Positions 25,936 to 59,604 of a DNA stretch of 64,000 nucleotides are shown here, in pieces. The notes below the pieces were generated by a model that was not told where the DNA came from, did no database searches, and was given only the letters and a program-made list of their open reading frames with translations. The stretch is from contig CALXBW010000004.1 in NCBI GenBank assembly GCA_944386645.1, forward strand, positions 11,256 through 75,255, written 5' to 3'. The position numbers and the translations under genes were made by a program. Each line of letters opens with the position of its first letter. Position 1 is the stretch's first letter. The stretch is from an uncultured Clostridia bacterium. GTDB lineage: Bacteria; Bacillota; Clostridia; TANB77; CAG-508.

Positions 25936-26415
25936 ATGATTAAAGTGACAAAATACAATGTGACAGAAATTATCAGAGAAAGGATGGCTAAGGTTACAAT
26001 TCTCAAACACAGTGAAGCAGATAGTTATGATTCTGATTTAATTGTAGATGGAAATCCCGAAAGTAAAATTGATAAAAACTTAATTTTCGTTGACGTCTCA
26101 GATGATGAGACATGCCTAGTTGCTCGAAAAATTTGGGAATATAATTCAAAAATAAAATTAAAATCTCTATCATTGCCAATAAGTGACATGTGTCGAGAAA
26201 GTACTTATTATCCACTCTCTGTAGATGACTATCTTGAGGGCTATACTACAGTTGAAAGCCTGAGAAATGAAATAAGGAGAAGGATTAATTGTGTAATAAA
26301 AATCTTGAACTTTATGTCGAAAAACAATATATATGCGATGATATACGAAGTATTCGTATATATAAAGGCAGTGGTCGAAAACTATGATAATTTATTAAAG
26401 ATTAAATTAATTTAA
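25936..26415 (+). CDS. Hypothetical protein (159 aa)
   Basis: ORF with RBS aaggagtg. No recognisable motif. A terminator follows. Confidence 0.45.
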   Translation: MIKVTKYNVTEIIRERMAKVTILKHSEADSYDSDLIVDGNPESKIDKNLIFVDVSDDETCLVARKIWEYNSKIKLKSLSLPISDMCRESTYYPLSVDDYLEGYTTVESLRNEIRRRINCVIKILNFMSKNNIYAMIYEVFVYIKAVVENYDNLLKIKLI

Positions 26416-38600: not shown

Positions 38601-38894
38601 ATGAATATTAAAGAAATTATTTATGGTGACGAAGGTGTTTTAAATCGTTTTAGAAATGGAGATTATACCATTTCTAATGAGGAGAAAAGCACAATATTAG
38701 ATTTTGCTAGAAAAGTAAATTCTGGTGTCAAAGAGGGAAATTTAAACCCTCAGGACTTTGCTCTTTACAGTGAGTTAATGTATTTTTTTATACATTATTC
38801 TAAAGAGGTTGATGGAGTAGAAGAACTTCTTGATGAGATTTATGGGGAAGTTCAAGATGGATTAGATTTTGATTACAATGAGGAGGATGAATAA
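38601..38894 (+). CDS. Hypothetical acidic protein C (97 aa)
   Basis: RBS gaggagg. C-terminal acidic tail DGLDFDYNEEDE. GC is higher than for genes A and B. Confidence 0.45.
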   Translation: MNIKEIIYGDEGVLNRFRNGDYTISNEEKSTILDFARKVNSGVKEGNLNPQDFALYSELMYFFIHYSKEVDGVEELLDEIYGEVQDGLDFDYNEEDE

Positions 38895-38898
38895 TAAT

Positions 38899-39543
38899 AT
38901 GGCGACACGTCCATCATGGAGAATAGTAAAAACGGATAACTTTATCAAAATTGTAAAAAATCACTTTGAATTTAAATTTAATCCAGGTTTTTCTGTTACT
39001 CAAAAACGGAAAAATGTAGTTGCTTTACACCAAGCAATTGGTGATAAAGCATTAGAGGTTTCAACTAAATCTGATCTGAAACTCGGAAGAATGTTAAGTG
39101 CATTCAATTTAAGAATCAACGGAATACCACTTGAGTGTGTATTCCAATCTGCTAAGGTTTATCAATATGGAGGACCTTATAAAGACCTCTTAAATGTGTC
39201 TCCAAAAGATGCTAAAAGAGATGAGCGTCACAAGAGTTCAGGAAAATTAATCTACTTCGAATATGAAGGAAAAAGATTTCCTCTTGAACCAAAAACATTC
39301 TTTTATGACTTTATTTATATAAAGGCTGTAAAAGAGTGTATTCCTTTGGAGGAGGTAAAAGATATAGTTCAGTATTCGCATTTTTCGGATATTGAATTCA
39401 ATCCTAAAAAATCAATTAACTGCCAAGCTAAAAGCGTTGCTATAATTAAAGCAATGCTGATGGTATTTGGCGAAGTTCCTCATATCAATGATATTGAGGA
39501 ATTTAAAAAATTTTACAAAGTAATTCAGGCAGAAAATGCTTGA
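38899..39543 (+). CDS. Hypothetical protein D (214 aa)
   Basis: Start reassigned to the ATG at 38899 (RBS gaggagga 10 nt upstream). Contains YQYGGPYKDLL and FYDFIYIKAV. ~35% GC against the ~25% background. A strong terminator follows it. Confidence 0.45.
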   Translation: MATRPSWRIVKTDNFIKIVKNHFEFKFNPGFSVTQKRKNVVALHQAIGDKALEVSTKSDLKLGRMLSAFNLRINGIPLECVFQSAKVYQYGGPYKDLLNVSPKDAKRDERHKSSGKLIYFEYEGKRFPLEPKTFFYDFIYIKAVKECIPLEEVKDIVQYSHFSDIEFNPKKSINCQAKSVAIIKAMLMVFGEVPHINDIEEFKKFYKVIQAENA

Positions 39544-50387: not shown

Positions 50388-51485
50388 TTGATTATTGATA
50401 TGGGCTATTTAAGTAAAGTGTTTAAAAGAATAATTTTATTATTACTTAGTATACTCTTACTTTTTTTAGTTGTTAAATTGTCTATATTCTATATGCCATT
50501 TTTAATAGCTTTTATAATAGCAAGTTTAATAGAACCTATAATAAGGTTTGTAAAAAAACATACAAAACTACAAAGAAAAACATCAGCAATAATAGTATTA
50601 ATAACAGTGTCTACTATCATAATAGGAATAATTGCGTGGGGGATAACTGTTTTAATATCAGAATCGTCGGAATTGTTGCAATCATTAAACATATATACAG
50701 ATAAAATATATAATTTATTTCAATCTTTTATAGGAAATATAAATTTTGAAAGATTTAATATACCATCAGAAGTTACACAATTATTACAAAACTCAACAAG
50801 CGATGTGCTTTCTGTTGTATCAAATGGTTTAAAAGGAATTTTAAATTCGATAATACAAGTAATAACATCATTACCAACAATAGGAATATATGTAGTTGTA
50901 ACATTACTTGCAACATATTTTATATGTGCAGATAGATTATATATATTAGATCAAATAGAACACCATTTTCCTAAAAAATGGGTAAAAAAATTAACACTTC
51001 ATTTAAAAAGACTGTTATCGAGCTTAGGAAATTATTTAAAAGCAGAGGCAATACTTGCAATTATAGCATTTTTTCAGATATTAATAGGTTTATATATACT
51101 TCAGAAAATGGGAATGAATGTACAATATCCTTTACTTGTAGCAATAGGAATTGGTTTTGTTGATGCACTCCCAATATTAGGTTCAGGTACAATTTTGGTA
51201 CCATGGGCATTTATATCAGCTATTAATGGTGATATAAGATTAGCAATAGGATTATTAATAATTTTTGCCATATTATCTGTTGTCAGACAATTCTTAGAAC
51301 CTAAAATAGTTAGCAAAAAAATAGGAATACATCCTATCTTTACATTAATTGCAATGTATACAGGATTTAAAGTAATAGGAATATTGGGTTTATTAATTGG
51401 ACCAATTGCAATGATTATAATAAAAAATTTATATGGAACTTTAATTGATAAAGGTGTTGTAAAAAGTATTTTCGAAAGAAAGTAA
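50388..51485 (+). CDS. ytvI: AI-2E (PerM) family transporter, sporulation membrane protein YtvI-like
   Basis: 365 aa, 8 TM, size and topology match the AI-2E family. TTG start after ggaggtaagg. Confidence 0.6.
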   Translation: MIIDMGYLSKVFKRIILLLLSILLLFLVVKLSIFYMPFLIAFIIASLIEPIIRFVKKHTKLQRKTSAIIVLITVSTIIIGIIAWGITVLISESSELLQSLNIYTDKIYNLFQSFIGNINFERFNIPSEVTQLLQNSTSDVLSVVSNGLKGILNSIIQVITSLPTIGIYVVVTLLATYFICADRLYILDQIEHHFPKKWVKKLTLHLKRLLSSLGNYLKAEAILAIIAFFQILIGLYILQKMGMNVQYPLLVAIGIGFVDALPILGSGTILVPWAFISAINGDIRLAIGLLIIFAILSVVRQFLEPKIVSKKIGIHPIFTLIAMYTGFKVIGILGLLIGPIAMIIIKNLYGTLIDKGVVKSIFERK

Positions 51486-51526
51486 TATCTAGAAAATTAA
51501 TGTTACAGCTTAATAAAAGTAATATA

Positions 51527-51643
51527 AAAAAATTAAATATAACTTTTTATTTGTAACTCCCAGCATCGCACAGTCTGTAAAACAGACTGTAAGCTTGCTG
51601 GTCCCCACGAATTGTTACTTCATAAAAAGTATATTTAATTTTT
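51527..51643. repeat. Dispersed palindromic element, copy D (minimal form; central hairpin loop is only aaa)
   Basis: aaaaaattaaATATAactttttatttGTAACtcccagcatcgcACAGTCTGTaaaACAGACTGTaagcttgctggtccccacgaattGTTACttcataaaaagTATATttaattttttt. Confidence 0.85.
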
Positions 51644-51677
51644 TTAATTATAGGAAATCTCTTTTTTTACCACAACA

Positions 51678-52238
51678 TTAATTTCTAGATATTAATACAG
51701 AAGTAGGAACATATGTATCATCAGGAGGATATACAAATTCTGTTTTTGGTTTATCAATATTTTTTATAGATTCAATCTCTATTACAGGTATTTCGCCATG
51801 ATAATTTCCTTTTGTTATTTTACCTGTTATTTCAACCCATGTTTTATCTTGAAAGTTTTTTGCTTGAGAATATTTACATAAAAAACCTACAACAAGAGTT
51901 TGATTATTTGAATCTATAATCATATCTCTTGCAAGCACAAATTCTTCACTTGAAAAATCCTGTACACGATAAATATAACCACTAAATTTAATTGATTGAC
52001 CTATATATGTATCAATATTTTCATGAACAGCTTTTAATACATTAGTATAATTTTCAGGAGAGATATTTGCAATATGTTCGTTTGGCAAGCAAGTGTCTAC
52101 ATCACTTTTAGAACTTAAAGCAGAACTAAATATTTTAAATGCAGATATAGAAAAGAATATTATAAGTATAATAACAATAATAAAAAAGATAATTTTGAAA
52201 ATTTTTGATTTATTTAAATTAAAATTATATACAAACAT
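51678..52238 (-). CDS. Hypothetical N-terminally anchored extracytoplasmic protein (186 aa)
   Basis: N-terminal TM, then a soluble domain. No motif recognised. Confidence 0.45.
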   Translation of the reverse strand: MFVYNFNLNKSKIFKIIFFIIVIILIIFFSISAFKIFSSALSSKSDVDTCLPNEHIANISPENYTNVLKAVHENIDTYIGQSIKFSGYIYRVQDFSSEEFVLARDMIIDSNNQTLVVGFLCKYSQAKNFQDKTWVEITGKITKGNYHGEIPVIEIESIKNIDKPKTEFVYPPDDTYVPTSVLISRN

Positions 52239-52404
52239 TAAAATCCTCCAATCAAAAAAGTATCGTTTATAAATAATATGAGGAAATTTATATAATATGT
52301 ATATTTAATATAAATATTAAGTTTTATGTGTAGAACAAATCAGAAAGTATGGTTTTCATATTGCATGAAAAAGCTGTACTAACATATGTTAGTACAGCTA
52401 GGAG

Positions 52405-52722
52405 TTAATTTATTTTTTTTATTTTTTTTATTCTTTTATCAATGAGTGCAATTGCACTTATGAGAATGAATAACATCATTAATAAAAGAATAACGAAAGC
52501 AACAGCCATAAACATATGTATACTATTTACGACTGCAAAGGTCTCTAAGATATTTGGAAGACCTAATAGTTCAAACAATATCTTATTTGTCAATAAAAAC
52601 AAACAAGATAATAAAATTAAGCAAATAATTGTATATACGTACATATACAATTTGTATTTCCGGATAGTACGTTGTTTCTGATTATTTCTCATTTTTTTTG
52701 CCTCCTTTAAATTTAAAAACAC
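52405..52722 (-). CDS. Small hydrophobic protein (105 aa, 2-3 TM)
   Basis: ORF with TM segments. It is one of three tandem small membrane-protein genes on the minus strand. Confidence 0.4.
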   Translation of the reverse strand: MFLNLKEAKKMRNNQKQRTIRKYKLYMYVYTIICLILLSCLFLLTNKILFELLGLPNILETFAVVNSIHMFMAVAFVILLLMMLFILISAIALIDKRIKKIKKIN

Positions 52723-52994
52723 TTAAAATAGAGTTTGTAAATTTCTCTAATAACTCCAATTAAAATAATTGAAGCAATTAAAGAAAATACAAATAAACAA
52801 ATTGAAAATGTAGCATTTATATCTAAAATGTGTATACTATATGGTTGAAAACCATACCCTATAATATTTGCCATGTAGCAAAATATTATAGGCAAAAAAA
52901 TAAATGCTAACAATAAAAAGTAAAAAAACAACCAGAAATCTACGAATTGATTAGGTACTAGTTTCCGAATAATTTTGCTATACATGATGAACAA
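52713..52994 (-). CDS. Small hydrophobic protein (93 aa)
   Basis: ORF with TM segments. Confidence 0.4.
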   Translation of the reverse strand: MFIMYSKIIRKLVPNQFVDFWLFFYFLLLAFIFLPIIFCYMANIIGYGFQPYSIHILDINATFSICLFVFSLIASIILIGVIREIYKLYFKCF

Positions 52995-53076
52995 CTCCTT
53001 TAAAAAATATTATGTAAATATTATACTATTTTTTTATAATAAAATCAAGGATTACATAAAAAGAAGTTGACATTTG

Positions 53077-53349
53077 TCAACTTCTTTCTTCGATTTTTTC
53101 TTTTAAGGATATTAATTTATTAAAATAAACTAATAACAAAACAAACAAAGGTATGCTTAGAGCAATATAAATTGGCATGATATTGCCTTCTATTAACTGT
53201 ATTAGATAGTTTTGCAAGTTTATTGCGGCAATATAATAAGCAATATTGCATAGGACGAACATAAAAGAAATAAAAGCAGTTAATAGTAAAAGTGGAAAAA
53301 TTATTAAGATACGATTGTTTATTTTTTCTATAACTTTCGAGGATTTCAT
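53077..53349 (-). CDS. Small hydrophobic protein (90 aa)
   Basis: ORF with TM segments and RBS ggagag. Confidence 0.4.
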   Translation of the reverse strand: MKSSKVIEKINNRILIIFPLLLLTAFISFMFVLCNIAYYIAAINLQNYLIQLIEGNIMPIYIALSIPLFVLLLVYFNKLISLKEKIEERS

Positions 53350-53642
53350 TTGAAATCTCTCCTTTCATAATAATATGTAATTAACATAATTATAACACTA
53401 TTATAGAAAAATATCAAATTGTAACCCAATTTGCAGCATACGATTTTGATATAATAATATTGAATAAATTTTTCTTTCATATAACTTGCATAATTTTACA
53501 AATATACTTGATATTTACATAATGATATGATATAATATGAAACGTTATCAAGGTTAAAGACCTGATTACATTATAAAATAAAGCAGTGAAAAAGCAAGTA
53601 GGAATAAAATTATTCATACACTATCATGAAAGGAGATTAACT

Positions 53643-54536
53643 ATGAATAGCAACAGCCTTAATCAAGAAAACCAGATGTTAACAGAAAATCGGAGTGGAA
53701 TCATAACACATCCAAGAGAAATAATGGACTTAAGAGAATTGTTTGTTATTTTAACCTACAGTTGCAATGGAAATTGCGAGTATTGCATCGAAAGAAATGT
53801 TCATCAAAAAGGAATGATTAGTGATGAAAATTTCGAAAAAGCAATAACTTTTGCCAAAGAAAAAGGTTTAACAACCATTTTTTTACACGGTGGCGAACCT
53901 TCTATGCATCCTAATATTGTTAGCTATGCTAAAAAAGCTAAAGATGCAGGATTTTTGGTAAAGATGTTTACAAATGGTATTGCCATTGATAAAATTAGGC
54001 AATTGGATGGTATCCTTGACGAGATTATCTTCTCGTATAGAGGCAAATACTCATTGCATAATCAAAAAGAATGGAAGACACCTTTGTCTCTGCAGGTACT
54101 TGTGATGCAGGATGAATTTCCAACATTAGAAGATTTGAGAGCATTTATTGTTGAAAAAAGTGCTACGGGTATGAAACTTAGAATTCATACTTTAAATCCA
54201 GTAAATCAGTATTCGTATGAGCATCAATATGTTTCCTATCTTGAGGATATGTTTATGGAACTTCCTGATGATGAGATTTTTTGTGCAAGTAATAAAGTTA
54301 TGTTAGCATATGAAGGTGTTGGAATTCGCTTGACGAATAAATCCTTAAATCCTTCTCATCTTAAATATAGCATGACTCCATCTGGTGAAATTCAGACTAA
54401 TTTTAAGAGACACTTTGAGGAAATTGTAAAGAATGACACAATGGAAACGCTATTACAAAAATCTTATGAAAAGTTAATGAGGTTGAGAGAAGATAAGAGT
54501 CTTGTTACTCTTGATAAAGTGTTAGGTTTTTACTAG
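53643..54536 (+). CDS. Radical SAM domain protein (297 aa, single CX3CX2C cluster, no SPASM/twitch Cys)
   Basis: YSCNGNCEYC (CX3CX2C) and a LHGGEP SAM-binding glycine motif. Start chosen at the ATG after aaaggagat. Clearly higher GC than the neighbouring DNA. Confidence 0.75.
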   Translation: MNSNSLNQENQMLTENRSGIITHPREIMDLRELFVILTYSCNGNCEYCIERNVHQKGMISDENFEKAITFAKEKGLTTIFLHGGEPSMHPNIVSYAKKAKDAGFLVKMFTNGIAIDKIRQLDGILDEIIFSYRGKYSLHNQKEWKTPLSLQVLVMQDEFPTLEDLRAFIVEKSATGMKLRIHTLNPVNQYSYEHQYVSYLEDMFMELPDDEIFCASNKVMLAYEGVGIRLTNKSLNPSHLKYSMTPSGEIQTNFKRHFEEIVKNDTMETLLQKSYEKLMRLREDKSLVTLDKVLGFY

Positions 54537-54581
54537 TGACTTAACACTTATTTGAAATAATGAAAGGATGATATAACGAAA

Positions 54582-55115
54582 ATGAGAAAGAAGTATACAA
54601 GTAAAACATACTTGCGAGGGGTTTCTGATTGGGATTTTATTATTCAAAAGCGAAAATCAGAAAATTATTATGTAAGTATAAAAAAAGTAAATGAAATTGA
54701 TAAACCTTTTATTGTTGATATGTCAGGACAGAGTATTGTATATATTGATAATGGTTACTATATATTAGAATTTACACCATTAGAACAATTTTACAATGTA
54801 AGGGTATTTCTAAATAAGAACGCAGATGTAATAGGATATTATTTTGATATAAGTCGAGGAAATGGCGTAGAAGAAAATATACCCTATTATGATGATCTGT
54901 ATTTGGATATTATTTATTGTCCGGCAGATAATAATTTTATAGTAGTTGATGACAAAGATGAATTATTAGATGCATTGAGTGCTGGAAAAATAACAAGGAA
55001 AGAATTTGATTTGGCAGAAGATGTGTGTTCAAAATTACTCGAAGAAATTCAGACAAATAGAAACATATTTATTAATATGAATAAAAAGGAATTGATTCAG
55101 AGATATTTTAGATAA
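54582..55115 (+). CDS. DUF402 protein (FomD / Ntdp-like nucleotide phosphohydrolase family)
   Basis: IGYYFDISRG...IPYYDDLYLDIIYCPADNNFIVVDDKDELLDA matches the DUF402 signature seen in S. aureus Ntdp and FomD (YYxNIS...YIDYDLDIxVYPNG...LLDEDE). Confidence 0.6.
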   Translation: MRKKYTSKTYLRGVSDWDFIIQKRKSENYYVSIKKVNEIDKPFIVDMSGQSIVYIDNGYYILEFTPLEQFYNVRVFLNKNADVIGYYFDISRGNGVEENIPYYDDLYLDIIYCPADNNFIVVDDKDELLDALSAGKITRKEFDLAEDVCSKLLEEIQTNRNIFINMNKKELIQRYFR

Positions 55116-55199
55116 AAAAATCTTACAAGAACACAATTCTCCTTATGAACTAGCTTTAAAAAAACATAGTTAATACTGTAAAAAGACTATTGGTAATAT

Positions 55200-55560
55200 A
55201 TACTAATAGTCTTTTTATGCATGTGCGACAGGCATGTCGTTTAGCTAATCGGTGAAAGTCCGTAGTGGAGGTAGATATCACCAACCACATAGAGAAGCAC
55301 AAGCTATCCATCGTGAGGTGGAAGTGGAGAAAGTGTGTATCAAAATATAAATGATAAAATAAGAATGTATGAAAAATCGAAAATAACGATGTACAAAAAC
55401 TTGTGCTTATTGAGAAGAAACTAGGGTTAAAAGTAAATGCGGAGAAAAGTAAAGTAACGAGACCAACACAGACAAAATATCTAGGGTTCATATTTAATAT
55501 AAATTGAACCGCCACTTATGACAACCGCTTGAGTGGTGGTGTGAGATGGGAGAAACACAT
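55200..55560 (+). mobile_element. Degraded group II intron fragment (5' GUGCG-like end plus a short remnant of the intron-encoded reverse transcriptase)
   Basis: GTGCGAC at 55222. The in-frame peptide LIEKKLGLKVNAEKSKVTRPTQTKYLGFIFNIN* at ~55400-55508 matches RT domain 6/7 of group II IEPs (LNxEKTKIT...FLGF). GC is elevated. No intact ORF or domain V was seen. Confidence 0.5.
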
Positions 55561-55696
55561 TAAGTGTTATCCTCTACTCGATTTAATGAATTAATTATAA
55601 ATATTAATTTCATATCATTGACTTTTTAATGCTTTTTTTGTATTATTTTAGAAAATAGAAATAAAATATTTCTATAAAAATGTGGAGGAAAATTTT

Positions 55697-56569
55697 ATGA
55701 TTGATTTACATATACATACAGTGTATTCAGATGGAGACAAAACTGTAGAAGAAATATTAAAAATGTGTGAAGAAAAAAATATAGAATATATATCAATAAC
55801 AGACCATGATACATGTAAACAATACCAAGATGAAATACTAAAAAACAATACAATATTTAGTGGTAGAATTATAAAAGGCTCAGAATTACATGCAATGTTT
55901 CAAAATGAAAGTATTGAAATATTAGCTTACAATATTAATACAGATATAATCGATAAATGGTGTAAAAAATACTATTCTAATGAAATATTAAAGGAACAGC
56001 AAGGAATATTATATCAAAGATTATTAGATATATGTCAGAAACATGGACTTATATATGATGAGAATAAAATAAAAAAACCAACAAAAGTATATAAATACGT
56101 GGAAAATCCAATTTATGAAGAGTTACTTAGGCACCATGAAAATCATAGGATATTAGGAGAATTTGCAAAATCATTTAATATATTTTTTAGAAATGGATTA
56201 GCAAATCCAGAAAGTAGTTATTTCATGAATTATGCAGAATTTAGACCACAATATAAAGAAGTGATTGATAATGTTCATAAGGCAGGAGGAAAAGCATTTT
56301 TAGCACATCCATTTGAATATAGATTTAGAGATATTATTAATTTTATAGATGATTTAAGAAAAGAAGCTGAGTTGGATGGAATAGAATGTTATCACCCATC
56401 ATCTGAAAAAGATAATAGGAAAGATATTTTAGTAGAGTATGCAAGGAAGAATGGATTGTTTATTAGTGGAGGAAGTGATTATCACGGAAGAATTAAACCA
56501 GATATAGATATAGGAATAGGTAGAGGAAATCTAAATATAACAAAGGAAATAATAGAAGCATGGGTATAA
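55697..56569 (+). CDS. PHP-domain metal-dependent phosphoesterase (TrpH/YciV-like)
   Basis: MIDLHIHTVYSDG...ISITDHDT is the canonical PHP motif I/II. 291 aa. Confidence 0.7.
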   Translation: MIDLHIHTVYSDGDKTVEEILKMCEEKNIEYISITDHDTCKQYQDEILKNNTIFSGRIIKGSELHAMFQNESIEILAYNINTDIIDKWCKKYYSNEILKEQQGILYQRLLDICQKHGLIYDENKIKKPTKVYKYVENPIYEELLRHHENHRILGEFAKSFNIFFRNGLANPESSYFMNYAEFRPQYKEVIDNVHKAGGKAFLAHPFEYRFRDIINFIDDLRKEAELDGIECYHPSSEKDNRKDILVEYARKNGLFISGGSDYHGRIKPDIDIGIGRGNLNITKEIIEAWV

Positions 56570-56956
56570 AATATAGTGTTTTTTCATATATTGAAAATTT
56601 TATTAAATAATCAAAAAAACAAAGAAAATTTGATTAAATAATTTTGATTTTATTAATAATATAATAAAAATTGTTAATTATATTATCATAAATTTTTTAT
56701 ATAACAAATACAATTTTAATTTACTAAAATTAAGGACTTTTCGTTAATATTAATCAAGTAATTTGCGGAAGAACCATTCTTATTTTACTATTTATATTTT
56801 TTATCAAAAAATATAACAGAGTTTTTAAAACAAAGAATCCAACTCTTATCGAGCTGAATTTTTTGTTTCTTGGGTTTCTACTTTAGGACACCCTCATTTA
56901 TCTGGTCTGAACAGTAATATCAAATTTTGATTTTTCTGCAAAATTAAATAAAAAAT

Positions 56957-56984
56957 ATTGACAAATGACCATCATAATATATAA
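56957..56984 (+). promoter_or_regulatory. Sigma-A-type promoter TTGACA-N16-TATAAT upstream of glgP
   Basis: Read directly. Perfect consensus hexamers. Confidence 0.5.
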
Positions 56985-57036
56985 TTAGTATGTTAAACAT
57001 GAAGATAAAAGGTTAATATACAGAGGAGGAAAATTT

Positions 57037-59604
57037 ATGTATGTATTTAACAGAATAACTGTTAATCCACAATTACCAAAAAGGATAAATAGGTTAGATG
57101 AAATATCAAATAATTTATGGTGGTCTTGGAATACAGACTTTTTGGAATTATTTAAACAAATAGACAAAAATTTATGGTATGAAGTTGGTAGAAATCCTGT
57201 AAAATTTTTAAAATTGGTTAGTCAAGAAAGATTAGAAGAATTAGCAGAAGATGCAGATTTTTTAAAGAAATATGATAAAAGTGTTTCAGATTTCGATAAT
57301 TATATGCATAGTACTAATACATGGTATGATAATAAATATCCAAATACAAGAGATAAAAATCTAATAGCATATTTTTCTGCTGAATATGGATTAGATGAGA
57401 TAATACCAATATATTCAGGAGGTCTTGGAATACTTTCAGGTGATCATTTAAAATCTGCAAGTGACCTAGGTATTCCTCTTGTTGGTGTTGGATTGCTATA
57501 TAAAAATGGATATTTTGATCAAAAGATTAATGAATATGGAATACAAAAATCTGATTATCAAAACTTAGATATAACTAATTTACCAATTACACCTGTTCAT
57601 AATGAGAAAGGTGAAGATTTATTAGTTTCAGTTAAGTTTTATGGTGAGGAAGTATTTGTTAAAGTATGGCAAATAAATGTTGGAAGAGTTAAATTATATT
57701 TAATGGATTCTGATATACCTAAAAATAGAAAAGAATATAGAGAAACAACTTTAAAATTATATGGTGGAGATAAAGAAACAAGAATAAGACAAGAAATTAT
57801 TTTAGGAATAGGTGGAGCAAGATTATTAAGTAAATTAAATTTAAAGCCAACTATATATCACATGAACGAGGGACATTCATCATTTTTGACTTTGGAATTA
57901 ATGAGAAAAACAATGGAAGATAGACAAGTATCTTTTAATATAGCAAGAGATATTGTTTCAGCAAAAACTGTATTTACAACACATACTCCAGTTCCTGCGG
58001 GAAATGATATTTTTGATATACAATTAATAGATAAATATTTTGGAGAATTTTGGGGTAAATTAGGTATTCCAAGGGATAGATTTTTAAGATTAGGAATGAA
58101 ATGTAGAGAAGGATTAGAACCTGGATTTAATATGGGAATACTTGCATTAAAAATTTCTGGAAAGAAAAATGGTGTTAGTAAGTTACATTGTGAGGTATCT
58201 AAAGAATTATTTGGTGAGATATGGTCAAATATAGCTACAAAAGAGGCACCTATTACATATGTTACAAATGGAGTTCATACTTGTTCATGGTTAGCACCAA
58301 ATATAAAGAGATTATATAATAAATATTTAGTTCCTTATTGGCAAGATAATATACAATTAGAATCTACTTGGAAAAATATAAAAAGTATTCCAGATGAAGA
58401 GTTATGGGAGGCACATAACGAGAGAAAAGTAAAGCTAATGGAATTAGTTAAGCAAAATGAAATAAGCAGATTAAAAAATACAGGAATAAGCTATGAAACA
58501 TTAAAAGAAATAGTTTCAAATTTTAATCCAGATGCATTAACTATTGGATTTGCAAGAAGATTTGCCACATATAAAAGAGCAAATTTGATATTTAAAAACA
58601 TAGAAAGAATAACAGAAATATGTAATGATAAGGACAAACCAGTTCAATTTGTATTTGCAGGTAAGGCGCATCCTGCAGATAAAGAAGGACAAGATCTAAT
58701 TAAATATATACATGAGATTTCAATGGTTCCTCAATTCAAAGGAAAAATATTTATACTAGAAAACTATAATATAGAAATGGCAAGATATTTGGTAAGTGGT
58801 GTAGATGTATGGCTTAATAATCCAAGACGACCAATGGAGGCATCTGGTACTAGTGGACAAAAAGCATCAATAAATGGTGTAGTTAATTTCAGTATTTTAG
58901 ATGGTTGGTGGGCAGAAGGATATAATGGAAAAAATGGATGGGCTATAGGCTCAAATAAAGAATATTCTTCATATGAAGAACAAGATATAGCTGATAGTAA
59001 TAGTATATATGATATATTAGAAAATGAAATAATTCCAGCATATTATAATAGAGATGATAAAGGTTTACCAAGAGAATGGATAAGATATATGAAAAGCTCT
59101 ATAGAATCTAATGCAGGAAGATTTAGTACAGCAAGAATGCTTGTTGATTATATGGAAAAATTATATATGCCTTTATATGACTTATCAACTAAATATTTTT
59201 CAAATTTAGATACAATTTCAGATTTTAATCAATGGAAAAGAGATTTAAAATTAAATTGGAACGATATTGAAATTACACAGTTTGATAATGTAAATAATAA
59301 AAAATTAGATGCTGGAAACACAATTGAAGTAAATTGCCAAGTTAAATTGCCTAATATATCAGTAGAAAGTATAGAAGTTGAAGCATATTTTGGAAAAATT
59401 ATGGATAATGGTACTTTAGATGAAGTAAAAATTATACCGATGAAACTTATAAAATCAGATGAAAATGAAAAAAGATATACATATAAAGCAAAGATAGAGT
59501 TGACAACAGGTGGTGAATACGGGTATACTTTTAGAGTAGTTCCTAAACATTATATGTTATTAGACCAACAAAATTTGAATTTAGTAAAATGGATAACTAA
59601 ATAA
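57037..59604 (+). CDS. glgP: Alpha-glucan (glycogen/maltodextrin) phosphorylase, GT35 family
   Basis: 855 aa. Alpha-glucan phosphorylase family region NGVVNFSILDGWWAEGY and the PLP-binding Lys region EASGTSGQKASINGV. Confidence 0.8.
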   Translation: MYVFNRITVNPQLPKRINRLDEISNNLWWSWNTDFLELFKQIDKNLWYEVGRNPVKFLKLVSQERLEELAEDADFLKKYDKSVSDFDNYMHSTNTWYDNKYPNTRDKNLIAYFSAEYGLDEIIPIYSGGLGILSGDHLKSASDLGIPLVGVGLLYKNGYFDQKINEYGIQKSDYQNLDITNLPITPVHNEKGEDLLVSVKFYGEEVFVKVWQINVGRVKLYLMDSDIPKNRKEYRETTLKLYGGDKETRIRQEIILGIGGARLLSKLNLKPTIYHMNEGHSSFLTLELMRKTMEDRQVSFNIARDIVSAKTVFTTHTPVPAGNDIFDIQLIDKYFGEFWGKLGIPRDRFLRLGMKCREGLEPGFNMGILALKISGKKNGVSKLHCEVSKELFGEIWSNIATKEAPITYVTNGVHTCSWLAPNIKRLYNKYLVPYWQDNIQLESTWKNIKSIPDEELWEAHNERKVKLMELVKQNEISRLKNTGISYETLKEIVSNFNPDALTIGFARRFATYKRANLIFKNIERITEICNDKDKPVQFVFAGKAHPADKEGQDLIKYIHEISMVPQFKGKIFILENYNIEMARYLVSGVDVWLNNPRRPMEASGTSGQKASINGVVNFSILDGWWAEGYNGKNGWAIGSNKEYSSYEEQDIADSNSIYDILENEIIPAYYNRDDKGLPREWIRYMKSSIESNAGRFSTARMLVDYMEKLYMPLYDLSTKYFSNLDTISDFNQWKRDLKLNWNDIEITQFDNVNNKKLDAGNTIEVNCQVKLPNISVESIEVEAYFGKIMDNGTLDEVKIIPMKLIKSDENEKRYTYKAKIELTTGGEYGYTFRVVPKHYMLLDQQNLNLVKWITK

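What the first reader, a model, noticed from the sequence alone, without database searches (positions are those of the whole stretch)
53586..55115. Higher-GC islet with a minimal radical SAM enzyme plus a DUF402 (FomD/Ntdp-like) nucleotide phosphohydrolase
The rSAM protein (53643..54536, CNGNCEYC, GGEP, no auxiliary-cluster Cys) is followed 45 bp later by a DUF402 protein whose motif YYDDLYLDIIYCP...LLDA matches the nucleoside di/triphosphatase / CMP-conjugate hydrolase family (FomD, Ntdp). In fosfomycin biosynthesis a radical SAM enzyme (Fom3) modifies a cytidylylated intermediate and the DUF402 enzyme FomD then removes CMP. Prokaryotic viperins, also minimal rSAMs, convert NTPs to chain-terminating ddhNTPs. 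An rSAM plus nucleotide-hydrolase pair in a GC-shifted islet beside an intron remnant is a plausible two-gene module for making or processing a modified nucleotide, whether for antiviral, signalling or antibiotic-like use. I cannot assign the rSAM to a known subfamily from sequence alone.
Basis: partly seen in the sequence, partly recalled or inferred. Interest (0 to 1): 0.7.

Follow-up and report, generated by a model that had tools for sequence, protein, structure and literature searches.

The report
Radical SAM plus nucleotide-hydrolase cassette
A small iron-sulfur radical enzyme that fits no curated family is kept next to a nucleotide-phosphate-cleaving enzyme in many gut bacteria, which points to an unknown pathway that makes or processes a modified nucleotide.

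Summary
Window 53643..54536 encodes an intact 297-aa radical SAM (rSAM) protein with one CX3CX2C cluster and no auxiliary-cluster cysteines. A 177-aa DUF402 protein follows 45 bp later. A strong promoter-like site and a strong hairpin terminator bracket the two genes.

The rSAM reaches no curated family threshold (viperin 44 of 180 bits, MoaA 39 of 284, QueE 33 of 260). It belongs to a very small family: 16 representatives at E<1e-30 among 1.84 billion proteins. Members come from gut Clostridia and Bacilli.

The pairing is conserved. DUF402 lies next to the rSAM in 26 of 28 informative non-redundant loci, in at least four gene orders, and the two proteins diverge in parallel. Relatives add a NUDIX hydrolase, a small HAD phosphatase (nucleotidase-like) or a GNAT domain fused to DUF402. 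In the window's clade a PHP phosphoesterase travels in the same roughly 3-kb block, flanked elsewhere by relaxases or serine recombinases.

Best reading: the rSAM modifies a nucleotide or nucleotide-linked metabolite, and the hydrolases strip its phosphates. Substrate, chemistry and biological role are inferred only. I found no paper describing the pairing. It is neither a viperin nor a Fom3/FomD system.

The parts
53508..53536 (+). Promoter-like site for the rSAM-DUF402 operon (TTGATA, 17-nt spacer, TATAAT, with an extended TG)
   Evidence: 11 of 12 consensus matches, the best + strand site in 53000..56000. It lies about 105 bp upstream of ATG 53643. This is a consensus match only; no transcription data exist.
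53643..54536 (+). Radical SAM enzyme, 297 aa, with a single 4Fe-4S/SAM site (C41 N G N C45 E Y C48; GGEP at 83-86; TNG at 110-112). It belongs to a small family that fits no curated model.
54582..55115 (+). DUF402-fold protein, 177 aa, predicted two-metal nucleotide phosphohydrolase (invariant D89, D104, D105, D109, D124, E127)
   Evidence: Pfam DUF402 45.4 bits. AF2 pLDDT 94.8. All nine significant Foldseek PDB hits are DUF402 proteins: RNase W, SC4828, Sa1684/Ntdp, FomD and 2p12. Acidic residues were mapped on the RNase W alignment and on the active-site description in PMC11602121.
55178..55218 (+). Intrinsic-terminator-like hairpin with a U-tail that ends the rSAM-DUF402 transcription unit
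   Evidence: 18-bp stem, -19.9 kcal/mol, z = -7.7 against shuffles. The sequence is conserved in related loci (query positions 24-100 at 75-92% identity).
55682..56569 (+). PHP-domain phosphoesterase, 295 aa (TrpH/YciV, RNase RNM or nucleoside-bisphosphate-phosphatase-like). Probable third member of the block in this clade only.
   Evidence: Pfam PHP 35.5 bits. NCBIfam RNase RNM 89.5 and pNp phosphatase 70.9 bits, both far below cut-off. It lies inside the DNA-homology block 53479..56630 shared with L001-L004 and L059-L074, whose flanks are unrelated. Functional linkage is inferred. It has its own promoter-like site (55618-55646) and ordinary GC3.
53479..56630 (+). Extent of the conserved rSAM-DUF402-PHP block (minus the 358-bp insertion at 55223..55580). 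It occurs in different genomic contexts in relatives.
   Evidence: blastn homology to L001 (96%) covers 53479-55222 and 55581-56630. Homology to L002, L003 and L061-L066 (83-85%) covers 53494-55215 and 55581-56574/56616. Homology to L004 (77-79%) covers 53626-56570. No protein or DNA similarity exists beyond these limits.

Best explanation
This is a self-contained nucleotide-modification cassette. The small single-cluster radical SAM enzyme uses a 5'-deoxyadenosyl radical to alter a nucleotide, most likely at the sugar of an NTP or NDP. That is what its nearest structural relatives do (viperin, MoaA, AbmM, BlsE). The DUF402 enzyme, a two-metal phosphoanhydride hydrolase, then converts the tri- or diphosphate to the monophosphate. 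In relatives a NUDIX hydrolase does the same job in parallel, and a small HAD phosphatase takes the monophosphate on to the free nucleoside. In the window's clade a PHP phosphoesterase may fill that last role. The output would be a dephosphorylated modified nucleoside or nucleotide. The hydrolases would both mature it and keep the toxic triphosphate form low in the producer.

Shown: the genes are intact. The pairing is conserved, co-inherited and rearranged without being separated. The folds and catalytic motifs are present. The partner set consists of nucleotide-type hydrolases.

Inferred: the substrate class, the order of the steps, the chemistry and the biological role.
For: 1. Pairing. DUF402 lies within about 50-220 bp of the rSAM, or about 700-970 bp away with NUDIX in between. 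This holds in 26 of 28 informative clusters at 90% identity. The gene orders are R>D, D>R, D<NUDIX< divergent from R, HAD>D>R and GNAT-DUF402>R.
2. Order flips between close relatives. The window is R>D, while L126 at 78% identity is D>R.
3. R and D pairwise identities co-vary: Mantel r 0.89, with 0 of 5000 permutations as high.
4. The partners have intact catalytic motifs or domain matches:
   - NUDIX PF00293 at E 4e-18, with a canonical Nudix box.
   - The HAD protein has invariant DMDGT, S, K and DD motifs. It gives weak NT5C hits in 11 of 11 members and HAD_PNKP at 1.9e-6.
   - A GNAT-DUF402 fusion.
   - PHP.
5. A DUF402 paralogue without the rSAM sits with NUDIX, GNAT and a UMPH-1 pyrimidine 5'-nucleotidase.
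6. The DUF402 keeps the acidic residues of the two-metal phosphatase site. It has DEDEL where RNase W has DKEKL.
8. The family conserves many basic and polar residues in the C-terminal half (R133, K218, R229, K233, H239, K241, N185, Q189, Q195, Y192, Y199). This fits an anionic, polar substrate (inference).
9. One lineage shows frameshifts in the rSAM, NUDIX and HAD genes together (L018, L081, L082, L106).
Against: - There are no biochemical data, and no characterised homologue reaches any curated threshold.
- The HAD assignment to nucleotidases is weak. The best NT5C E-value is 0.0027, and that HAD family also occurs widely without the module.
- The DUF402 subfamily also occurs without the rSAM.
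- Phosphohydrolases could act before rather than after the rSAM.
- No transporter, kinase, regulator or riboswitch recurs nearby to indicate export or a ligand.
- In the window a terminator separates PHP from the operon, and PHP has native-like codon composition.
Confidence: 0.45

Rival explanations
1. Nucleotidyl-handle chemistry, following the logic of fosfomycin synthesis. The rSAM acts on a small molecule or sugar carried as an NDP-X or CMP-X conjugate. DUF402 and/or NUDIX then cleave off the nucleotide (NDP-X to NMP plus X-P). The HAD phosphatase removes the remaining phosphate, and GNAT acetylates an amino group on X.
For: FomD, a DUF402 enzyme, removes CMP from the product of an rSAM step (PMC9088020; PMC11602121). 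NUDIX enzymes by definition cleave nucleoside-diphosphate-X. A distant full-length relative of the rSAM (P0194, E 1e-46) is fused to an N-terminal sugar-phosphate nucleotidyltransferase domain, PF00483. The GNAT fusion recalls amino-sugar pathways such as PseH/PseG (my own knowledge).
Against: No nucleotidyltransferase occurs in any of the roughly 28 core-family neighbourhoods. The rSAM has no cobalamin domain, so it is not Fom3-like. The window's DUF402 does not hit the NCBIfam FomD model at all, and fused relatives reach only 19-21 of 320 bits. The HAD partner looks more like nucleotidases or PNKP than sugar phosphatases.
Confidence: 0.15
2. A viperin-like anti-phage or anti-mobile-element system. 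The rSAM makes a chain-terminating or otherwise toxic nucleotide analogue. The hydrolases limit self-toxicity or drain the NTP pool.
For: The best PADLOC hits are the pVip models (54.4 and 50.9 bits). hhalign gives 98.5% probability to an annotated archaeal pVip over the core. The rSAM is the strongest GC3 outlier in the window. The R-D-PHP block sits in different contexts, next to Mob_Pre relaxases or large serine recombinases. An AbiEii gene lies nearby in L125. The family is small and patchily distributed.
Against: The NCBIfam viperin model scores 44.1 bits against a cut-off of 180, over model positions 8-114 only. The C-terminal half does not align. In my knowledge, known pVips associate with nucleotide kinases, not with hydrolases that would destroy a triphosphate product. 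Several loci lie between ordinary housekeeping genes. No copies occur in phage or IMG/VR collections.
Confidence: 0.12
3. An RNA-end processing or RNA-modification cassette. NUDIX would act as an RppH-like 5' pyrophosphohydrolase, DUF402 as an RNase W-like nuclease or 5' phosphatase, HAD as a PNKP-like 3' phosphatase, and PHP as an RNase RNM-like exonuclease. The rSAM would modify an RNA nucleotide.
For: DUF402 is the catalytic RNase domain of archaeal RNase W (PMC11602121), and RNase W entries are the top Foldseek and PDB sequence hits. Two HAD members hit HAD_PNKP at E 1.9e-6, and gene calls in L120-L122 carry the same weak label. PHP's best NCBIfam hit is RNase RNM. NUDIX weakly hits RNA pyrophosphohydrolase models.
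Against: The DUF402 here keeps the full acidic two-metal site, which RNase W has lost. No RNA-binding domain (S1, THUMP, PUA, TRAM) is present in the rSAM or its partners. All the RNA-related hits are far below curated cut-offs.
Confidence: 0.08
4. The rSAM is a maturase or activase that post-translationally modifies the DUF402 protein. Alternatively, the two are merely neighbours with no shared pathway.
Against: DUF402 proteins of the same subfamily exist without the rSAM. According to PMC11602121, characterised DUF402 enzymes are active without any reported modification. The rSAM has no SPASM, twitch or RRE elements. Chance adjacency is excluded by 26 of 28 loci, several gene orders and parallel divergence.
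Confidence: 0.06

Closest known systems
Viperin / prokaryotic viperins (pVip; NCBIfam NF038283)
   Different: Only residues 36-132 align. The score is 44 of 180 bits on the curated model. The C-terminal substrate-binding half is unrelated. The partners are phosphohydrolases, not kinases. No antiviral evidence exists.
Fom3 / FomD step of fosfomycin biosynthesis
   Same: An rSAM step is followed by a DUF402-fold hydrolase that cleaves a nucleotide phosphoanhydride. The DUF402 fold is confirmed here.
   Different: Fom3 is a cobalamin-dependent class B rSAM (my own knowledge), and no B12 domain is present here. The window's DUF402 is 11-12% identical to FomD and does not hit the FomD model. No cytidylyltransferase or phosphonate genes lie nearby.
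Ntdp (S. aureus Sa1684) and SC4828, the DUF402 nucleoside tri/diphosphatases
   Same: Same fold (Foldseek probability 1.0 to 7d8g and 3cbt). The acidic metal-binding residues are conserved.
   Different: About 16% identity, and no sequence-level PDB hit. This is a distinct subfamily with a dedicated rSAM partner.
OxsB / OxsA (oxetanocin A) and PolH / PolJ (nikkomycin and polyoxin): rSAM plus phosphohydrolase pairs in nucleoside antibiotic synthesis (my own knowledge, not tested here)
   Same: The logic is the same. An rSAM rearranges a phosphorylated nucleoside, and a dedicated phosphohydrolase releases the dephosphorylated product.
   Different: The enzyme families differ. OxsB is B12-dependent, and OxsA is an HD-domain enzyme. 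No sequence relationship was shown here, and the hosts are gut Clostridia and Bacilli rather than Bacillus or Streptomyces producers.
AbmM, BlsE and MoaA (nucleotide- or nucleoside-acting rSAMs with solved structures)
   Different: Similarity covers only the first 100-125 residues at sequence level. The curated MoaA and BlsE models score 38-42 bits against cut-offs of 284-400. There is no MoaA-type C-terminal cluster.

Membership tests
Radical SAM superfamily (PF04055) | CX3CX2C cluster motif, the GGE SAM-binding motif, and a Pfam score above the gathering threshold | tested here: met
Viperin / pVip (NF038283) | Whole-protein score at or above the curated cut-off (180 bits), with the alignment covering the C-terminal nucleotide-binding half | tested here: not met
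   44.1 bits, over model positions 8-114 only. hhalign to an annotated pVip aligns only 96 columns, residues 36-132.
Viperin / pVip (NF038283) | Converts an NTP to a 3'-deoxy-3',4'-didehydro-NTP | not testable with these tools
   This needs an enzyme assay.
MoaA (TIGR02666 / TIGR02668) | Curated cut-off reached, and a C-terminal three-cysteine auxiliary 4Fe-4S cluster that binds GTP | tested here: not met
   39.4 of 284 bits and 42.1 of 325 bits. Only one cysteine (C214) lies outside the SAM cluster, and it is not invariant.
QueE (TIGR03963) | Curated cut-off reached | tested here: not met
SPASM / twitch rSAM maturases | A C-terminal cysteine-rich auxiliary-cluster domain (PF13186) | tested here: not met
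   No SPASM hit and no conserved extra cysteines. Curated SPASM-family models score 23-60 bits against cut-offs of 265-650.
Fom3-type class B rSAM methyltransferase | An N-terminal cobalamin-binding domain | tested here: not met
   The protein is 297 aa with only Radical_SAM and Fer4_12 Pfam matches. The cluster motif starts at residue 41.
DUF402 (PF04167) phosphohydrolase fold | A Pfam score above the gathering threshold, and the 12-strand barrel plus C-terminal helices fold | tested here: met
   45.4 bits against 23.9. AF2 pLDDT is 94.8. All nine significant Foldseek PDB hits are DUF402 proteins.
DUF402 (PF04167) phosphohydrolase fold | Acidic ligands for two metal ions (equivalents of PfRNase W D420, D424 and D437, plus the third Asp that RNase W lacks) | tested here: met
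   D105, D109, D124 and E125/E127 are invariant or nearly so. They were mapped through the profile alignment to 8wo8 and the description in PMC11602121. That alignment is weak (E 0.07), so the residue mapping is provisional.
FomD equivalog (NF049998) | Curated cut-off of 320 bits | tested here: not met
   The window protein gives no hit at E<=0.01. Fused relatives reach 18.7-20.7 bits.
Ntdp-type nucleoside tri/diphosphatase activity | Hydrolysis of NTP or NDP to NMP | not testable with these tools
   This needs an enzyme assay. Only fold and motif conservation are shown.
Conserved gene module (operational definition) | Adjacency kept across distant members and across changes in gene order | tested here: met
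   26 of 28 informative clusters, in at least four architectures. Mantel r is 0.89.

The most novel reading that the evidence does not exclude
Prevalent small-genome gut Firmicutes carry a mobile cassette with two parts. A radical SAM enzyme, unrelated at family level to viperin, turns an ordinary nucleotide into a chemically new nucleoside or nucleotide, for example a dehydrated, rearranged or deoxygenated sugar. Dedicated DUF402, NUDIX, HAD or PHP hydrolases then release it as a free antimetabolite, signal or antiviral agent in the gut.
Probability: 0.3. Interest if true: 0.8.

Novelty: new variant of a known kind. Interest (0 to 1): 0.6.

Why it matters
Radical SAM enzymes that act on nucleotides have repeatedly yielded new chemistry and bioactive molecules. 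Examples from my own knowledge are ddhCTP from viperin, oxetanocin and the albomycin thiosugar.

This family fits no curated model, and I found no paper on the pairing. It is tiny in sequence space, yet one member cluster was seen on at least 1000 contigs in public assemblies. It also comes with a ready-made hypothesis: its obligate partners are nucleotide phosphohydrolases.

That makes it directly testable with two to four small soluble proteins and a panel of NTPs. If the product is a new nucleoside analogue made by common gut commensals, it would bear on microbe-microbe, microbe-phage and possibly microbe-host interactions. It would also give the DUF402 family a first defined physiological partner outside fosfomycin synthesis.

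Tried and rejected
- Curated family assignment failed. Every one of the 47 NCBIfam hits is far below its cut-off and covers only the first 100 or so residues.
- PDB sequence searches were uninformative. The rSAM matched only the generic core. DUF402 gave only weak RNase W hits, even at E<=10.
- Rfam found no riboswitch or leader, either in window 50000-58000 or next to the module in 13 related loci.
- Phage origin was tested and rejected. There are no family members in IMG/VR or INPHARED. BFVD structural hits are generic rSAMs.
- The plasmid collection holds only a distant (31%) rSAM on Vibrio megaplasmids. It sits among hypothetical genes with no DUF402.
- Contexts of distant relatives (P0192, P0197, P0199, P0194) lie on short contigs and told me little beyond the nucleotidyltransferase fusion.
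- A flank survey of 60 neighbouring proteins found no recurrent transporter, kinase or regulator. It found only housekeeping genes plus relaxases and recombinases.
- P0068, an apparent rSAM-DUF402 fusion, is a deletion chimera or pseudogene, not a Rosetta-stone fusion.
- A 26-nt imperfect direct repeat lies at the block edges (53458-53483 and 56565-56590, 77% identity). It is not distinguishable from chance in this AT-rich DNA.
Full report
**1. What is there**

The window is about 26% G+C. Its closest relatives at this locus are uncultured gut Clostridium MAGs. L001 is 96-97% identical, and the Clostridium sp. CAG:571 group is about 89% identical at protein level.

- The rSAM ORF runs 53586..54536. 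The real start is ATG 53643. It has a GAAAGGAGA ribosome-binding site just upstream, and close homologues are exactly 297 aa.
- The DUF402 ORF is 54582..55115, 45 bp after the rSAM stop.
- A near-consensus promoter-like site (TTGATA-17-TATAAT with TG, 11 of 12 matches) lies at 53508-53536.
- An 18-bp hairpin with a U-tail lies at 55178-55218 (-19.9 kcal/mol, z = -7.7). The two genes therefore look like a bicistronic operon.

**2. The radical SAM protein**

- Pfam sees only the generic Radical_SAM and Fer4_12 domains, over residues 35-142.
- All 47 NCBIfam hits are far below their curated cut-offs and cover only the first 100 or so residues. Examples are the tungsten-cofactor maturase at 60 of 380 bits, viperin at 44 of 180, MoaA at 39-42 of 284-325, BlsE at 38 of 400 and QueE at 33 of 260.
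- A search of 5.8 billion proteins returned only 68 hits.
- An exhaustive profile search of 1.84 billion representatives gave 16 with E<1e-30. The family is very small.
- Alignments show invariant C41, C45, C48, GGEP and TNG, plus a well-conserved C-terminal half (TLNPVNQ, NKSLNPxHxKYSMxPDG). There is no conserved extra cysteine set.
- The AlphaFold model is confident (pLDDT 91.8). It shows a partial (beta/alpha)6 barrel, then a small beta-sheet and helices.
- Profile-to-PDB hits (AbmM, BlsE, PqqE, viperin, MoaA) and an hhalign to an annotated archaeal pVip (98.5% probability) cover only residues 17-132.

The protein therefore sits in the MoaA / viperin / BlsE / SPASM-like region of the superfamily, but it is a member of none of those families.

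**3. The DUF402 protein**

- Pfam DUF402 scores 45.4 bits. The model has pLDDT 94.8.
- All nine significant Foldseek PDB hits are DUF402 proteins: RNase W, SC4828, Sa1684/Ntdp, FomD and 2p12, at 11-22% identity.
- It is about equally distant from all of them. Sequence searches of the PDB reach only RNase W, and only weakly.
- I mapped residues through that alignment and the active-site description in PMC11602121. The invariant D105, D109 and D124 match the metal ligands. The DEDEL segment keeps acidic residues where RNase W has DKEKL.
- The protein thus looks like the two-metal phosphatases rather than the RNase. This mapping is provisional.

**4. Is the pairing conserved?**

I collected loci from one scan of species-representative genomes, one metagenome scan and several exact look-ups. 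The family rSAMs fall into 30 clusters at 90% identity, and 28 of them have enough flanking sequence to judge. DUF402 is adjacent in 26. The exceptions are L015 and L025.

| Architecture | Loci |
|---|---|
| rSAM>DUF402 | window, L004, L073, L011 |
| DUF402>rSAM | L005, L019, L125/L126 |
| DUF402<NUDIX< divergent from rSAM>, often with a convergent HAD gene | L006-L010, L027, L077, L096 |
| HAD>DUF402>rSAM | L016, L076, L100, L120 |
| GNAT-DUF402 fusion>rSAM | L014, L017 |
| HAD>GNAT-DUF402 fusion>rSAM | L012, L103 |

- Gene order flips even between close relatives. The window is R>D, while L126 at 78% identity is D>R.
- Pairwise identities of the two proteins co-vary (Mantel r 0.89, 0 of 5000 permutations).
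- One lineage (L018, L081, L082, L106) carries frameshifts in the HAD, NUDIX and rSAM genes. This suggests the module decays as a unit.
- The association is asymmetric. DUF402 of this subfamily can occur without the rSAM (L123/L124). There it sits with a MutT-like NUDIX, a GNAT and a UMPH-1 pyrimidine 5'-nucleotidase.
- The HAD family is also widespread on its own.
- More distant rSAM relatives (31-37% identity) lack DUF402 neighbours. One of them (P0194) is fused to a nucleotidyltransferase domain.

**5. The partners**

- NUDIX proteins have a canonical Nudix box.
- The protein of about 164 aa that I called c5 has invariant DMDGT, S, K and DD motifs of the HAD superfamily. Its database hits are weak but consistent: Pfam NT5C in 11 of 11 members, HAD_PNKP at E 1.9e-6 in two, and PHROG deoxyribonucleotidase and polynucleotide kinase families.
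- The window has none of these extra partners.
- Its clade does keep a PHP phosphoesterase directly downstream. PHP's best matches, all sub-threshold, are RNase RNM and 3',5'-nucleoside bisphosphate phosphatase.

**6. Island status**

- The rSAM has the highest GC3 of 43 long ORFs in the window (0.278 against a mean of 0.123, sd 0.049). DUF402 is mildly raised (0.181), and PHP is ordinary (0.136).
- DNA homology between the window and related loci covers exactly 53479/53494 to 56574/56630. That span is promoter, rSAM, DUF402, terminator and PHP. Homology stops there even in the 96%-identical L001.
- In those loci the flanks carry Mob_Pre relaxases (L002-L004, L060-L066) or large serine recombinases (L001, L026, also L007, L023, L125).
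- No such gene is found in the 64-kb window.
- The block therefore behaves as a small cargo unit that has changed context. Other architectures lie between ordinary housekeeping genes.

**7. Interpretation**

The shown facts are these. The rSAM is intact and fits no curated family. Its near-obligate partner is a DUF402-fold two-metal hydrolase. Its accessory partners are all enzymes that cleave nucleotide phosphates, plus a GNAT in some lineages.

The most economical reading has two steps. The rSAM alters a nucleotide or a nucleotide-linked metabolite. The hydrolases then take the product down to the monophosphate or the free nucleoside. That both matures the product and protects the producer. 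In my own knowledge this is the logic of OxsB/OxsA and PolH/PolJ, and in a different form of Fom3/FomD.

The following are all inferred, and I give the general model 0.45:
- the order of the steps;
- the substrate, with the UMPH-1 neighbour as a weak hint towards pyrimidines;
- the chemistry;
- the biological role (antimetabolite, antiviral, signal or detoxification).

The rivals are:
- nucleotidyl-handle removal, 0.15;
- a pVip-like defence role, 0.12;
- RNA-end processing, 0.08;
- a maturase of DUF402, or unrelated neighbours, 0.06.

**8. Novelty**

Full-text searches found no paper that links DUF402 with a radical SAM enzyme apart from the fosfomycin review, and none that describes this family. 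Public sources call members only 'radical SAM domain protein' or 'organic radical activating enzyme'.

I class it as a new variant of a known kind: an rSAM-centred nucleotide-processing cassette built from an undescribed rSAM family and a previously unreported DUF402 partnership.

Interest is 0.6. The evidence for a module is strong and the hypothesis is directly testable, but no function has been demonstrated.

Noticed in passing
window 55223..55580: A 358-bp insertion relative to the 96%-identical locus L001 lies immediately after the operon's terminator hairpin. It starts GTGCG and holds an RT-like peptide fragment. Rfam gives only a sub-threshold group-II-D1D4-4 match (14.7 bits, gathering 49). 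Insertion just downstream of a terminator is the known habit of class C group II introns (my own knowledge), so this looks like a decayed or deleted intron.
   Followed up: partly
window 53479..56630; L001-L004, L026, L060-L070: The rSAM-DUF402-PHP block is a discrete DNA-homology unit whose flanks differ between genomes. In relatives the flanks carry Mob_Pre relaxases or large serine recombinases, which suggests carriage on integrated mobilizable elements. An imperfect 26-nt direct repeat lies at the block edges in the window (53458-53483 and 56565-56590), but it may be chance.
   Followed up: partly
L018, L081, L082, L106: In one species-level lineage the HAD gene (4 of 4 assemblies), the NUDIX gene (3 of 4) and the rSAM gene (2 of 4) carry frameshifts, while DUF402 stays as one piece. 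This is apparent co-decay of the module. L111 and L112 show even more fragmentation, which may be assembly error.
   Followed up: partly
L123 4511..6869 and L124: A DUF402 paralogue (54% identical to the window's) has no rSAM within 5 kb. It is flanked by a MutT-like NUDIX, a GNAT and a UMPH-1 pyrimidine 5'-nucleotidase, beside a PLD-nuclease/helicase (DUF3427) gene. This may be a nucleotide-sanitising or defence-associated set.
   Followed up: no
L050 933..2336 (protein P0194): A distant full-length relative of the rSAM (E 1e-46 to the family profile) is fused to an N-terminal sugar-phosphate nucleotidyltransferase domain (PF00483). The contig is too short to show neighbours.
   Followed up: partly
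L012, L014, L017, L021, L101, L103: DUF402 is fused to an N-terminal GNAT acetyltransferase domain (Acetyltransf_1 and Acetyltransf_3) in several lineages. This implies an acetylatable amine on the substrate or product, or a self-resistance step.
   Followed up: partly
L128-L130 7001..7495: Close homologues (54%) of the module's HAD phosphatase are common in other gut bacteria without the rSAM or DUF402. One was seen on 136 contigs, including a 1.7-Mb one. There the gene sits between a RarA/MgsA-like ATPase and the Ogt and Tag DNA-repair genes.
   Followed up: no
window 52405..53349 (- strand): Three tandem small ORFs (105, 93 and 90 aa) with predicted membrane-like sequences and no family match lie just upstream of the block. 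They are not conserved in any related locus.
   Followed up: no
window 25936..26412, 38869..39540, 61205..61882: Three other ORFs have unusually high GC3 (0.277, 0.246 and 0.226 against a mean of 0.123). They may be further foreign or highly expressed genes.
   Followed up: no
L127 7956..8690 (Vibrio parahaemolyticus megaplasmid NZ_CP062152.1): A 244-aa 'radical SAM protein', 31.6% identical over residues 33-256, lies in a long run of small hypothetical genes on 0.9-Mb Vibrio plasmids. It has no DUF402 nearby. It shows that the wider mini-rSAM superfamily reaches Proteobacteria.
   Followed up: partly
L025 5998..8465: One of the two loci without DUF402 (a MAG labelled Rickettsiales) instead has the family rSAM followed by a 203-aa protein and a second, different 341-aa rSAM.
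   Followed up: no
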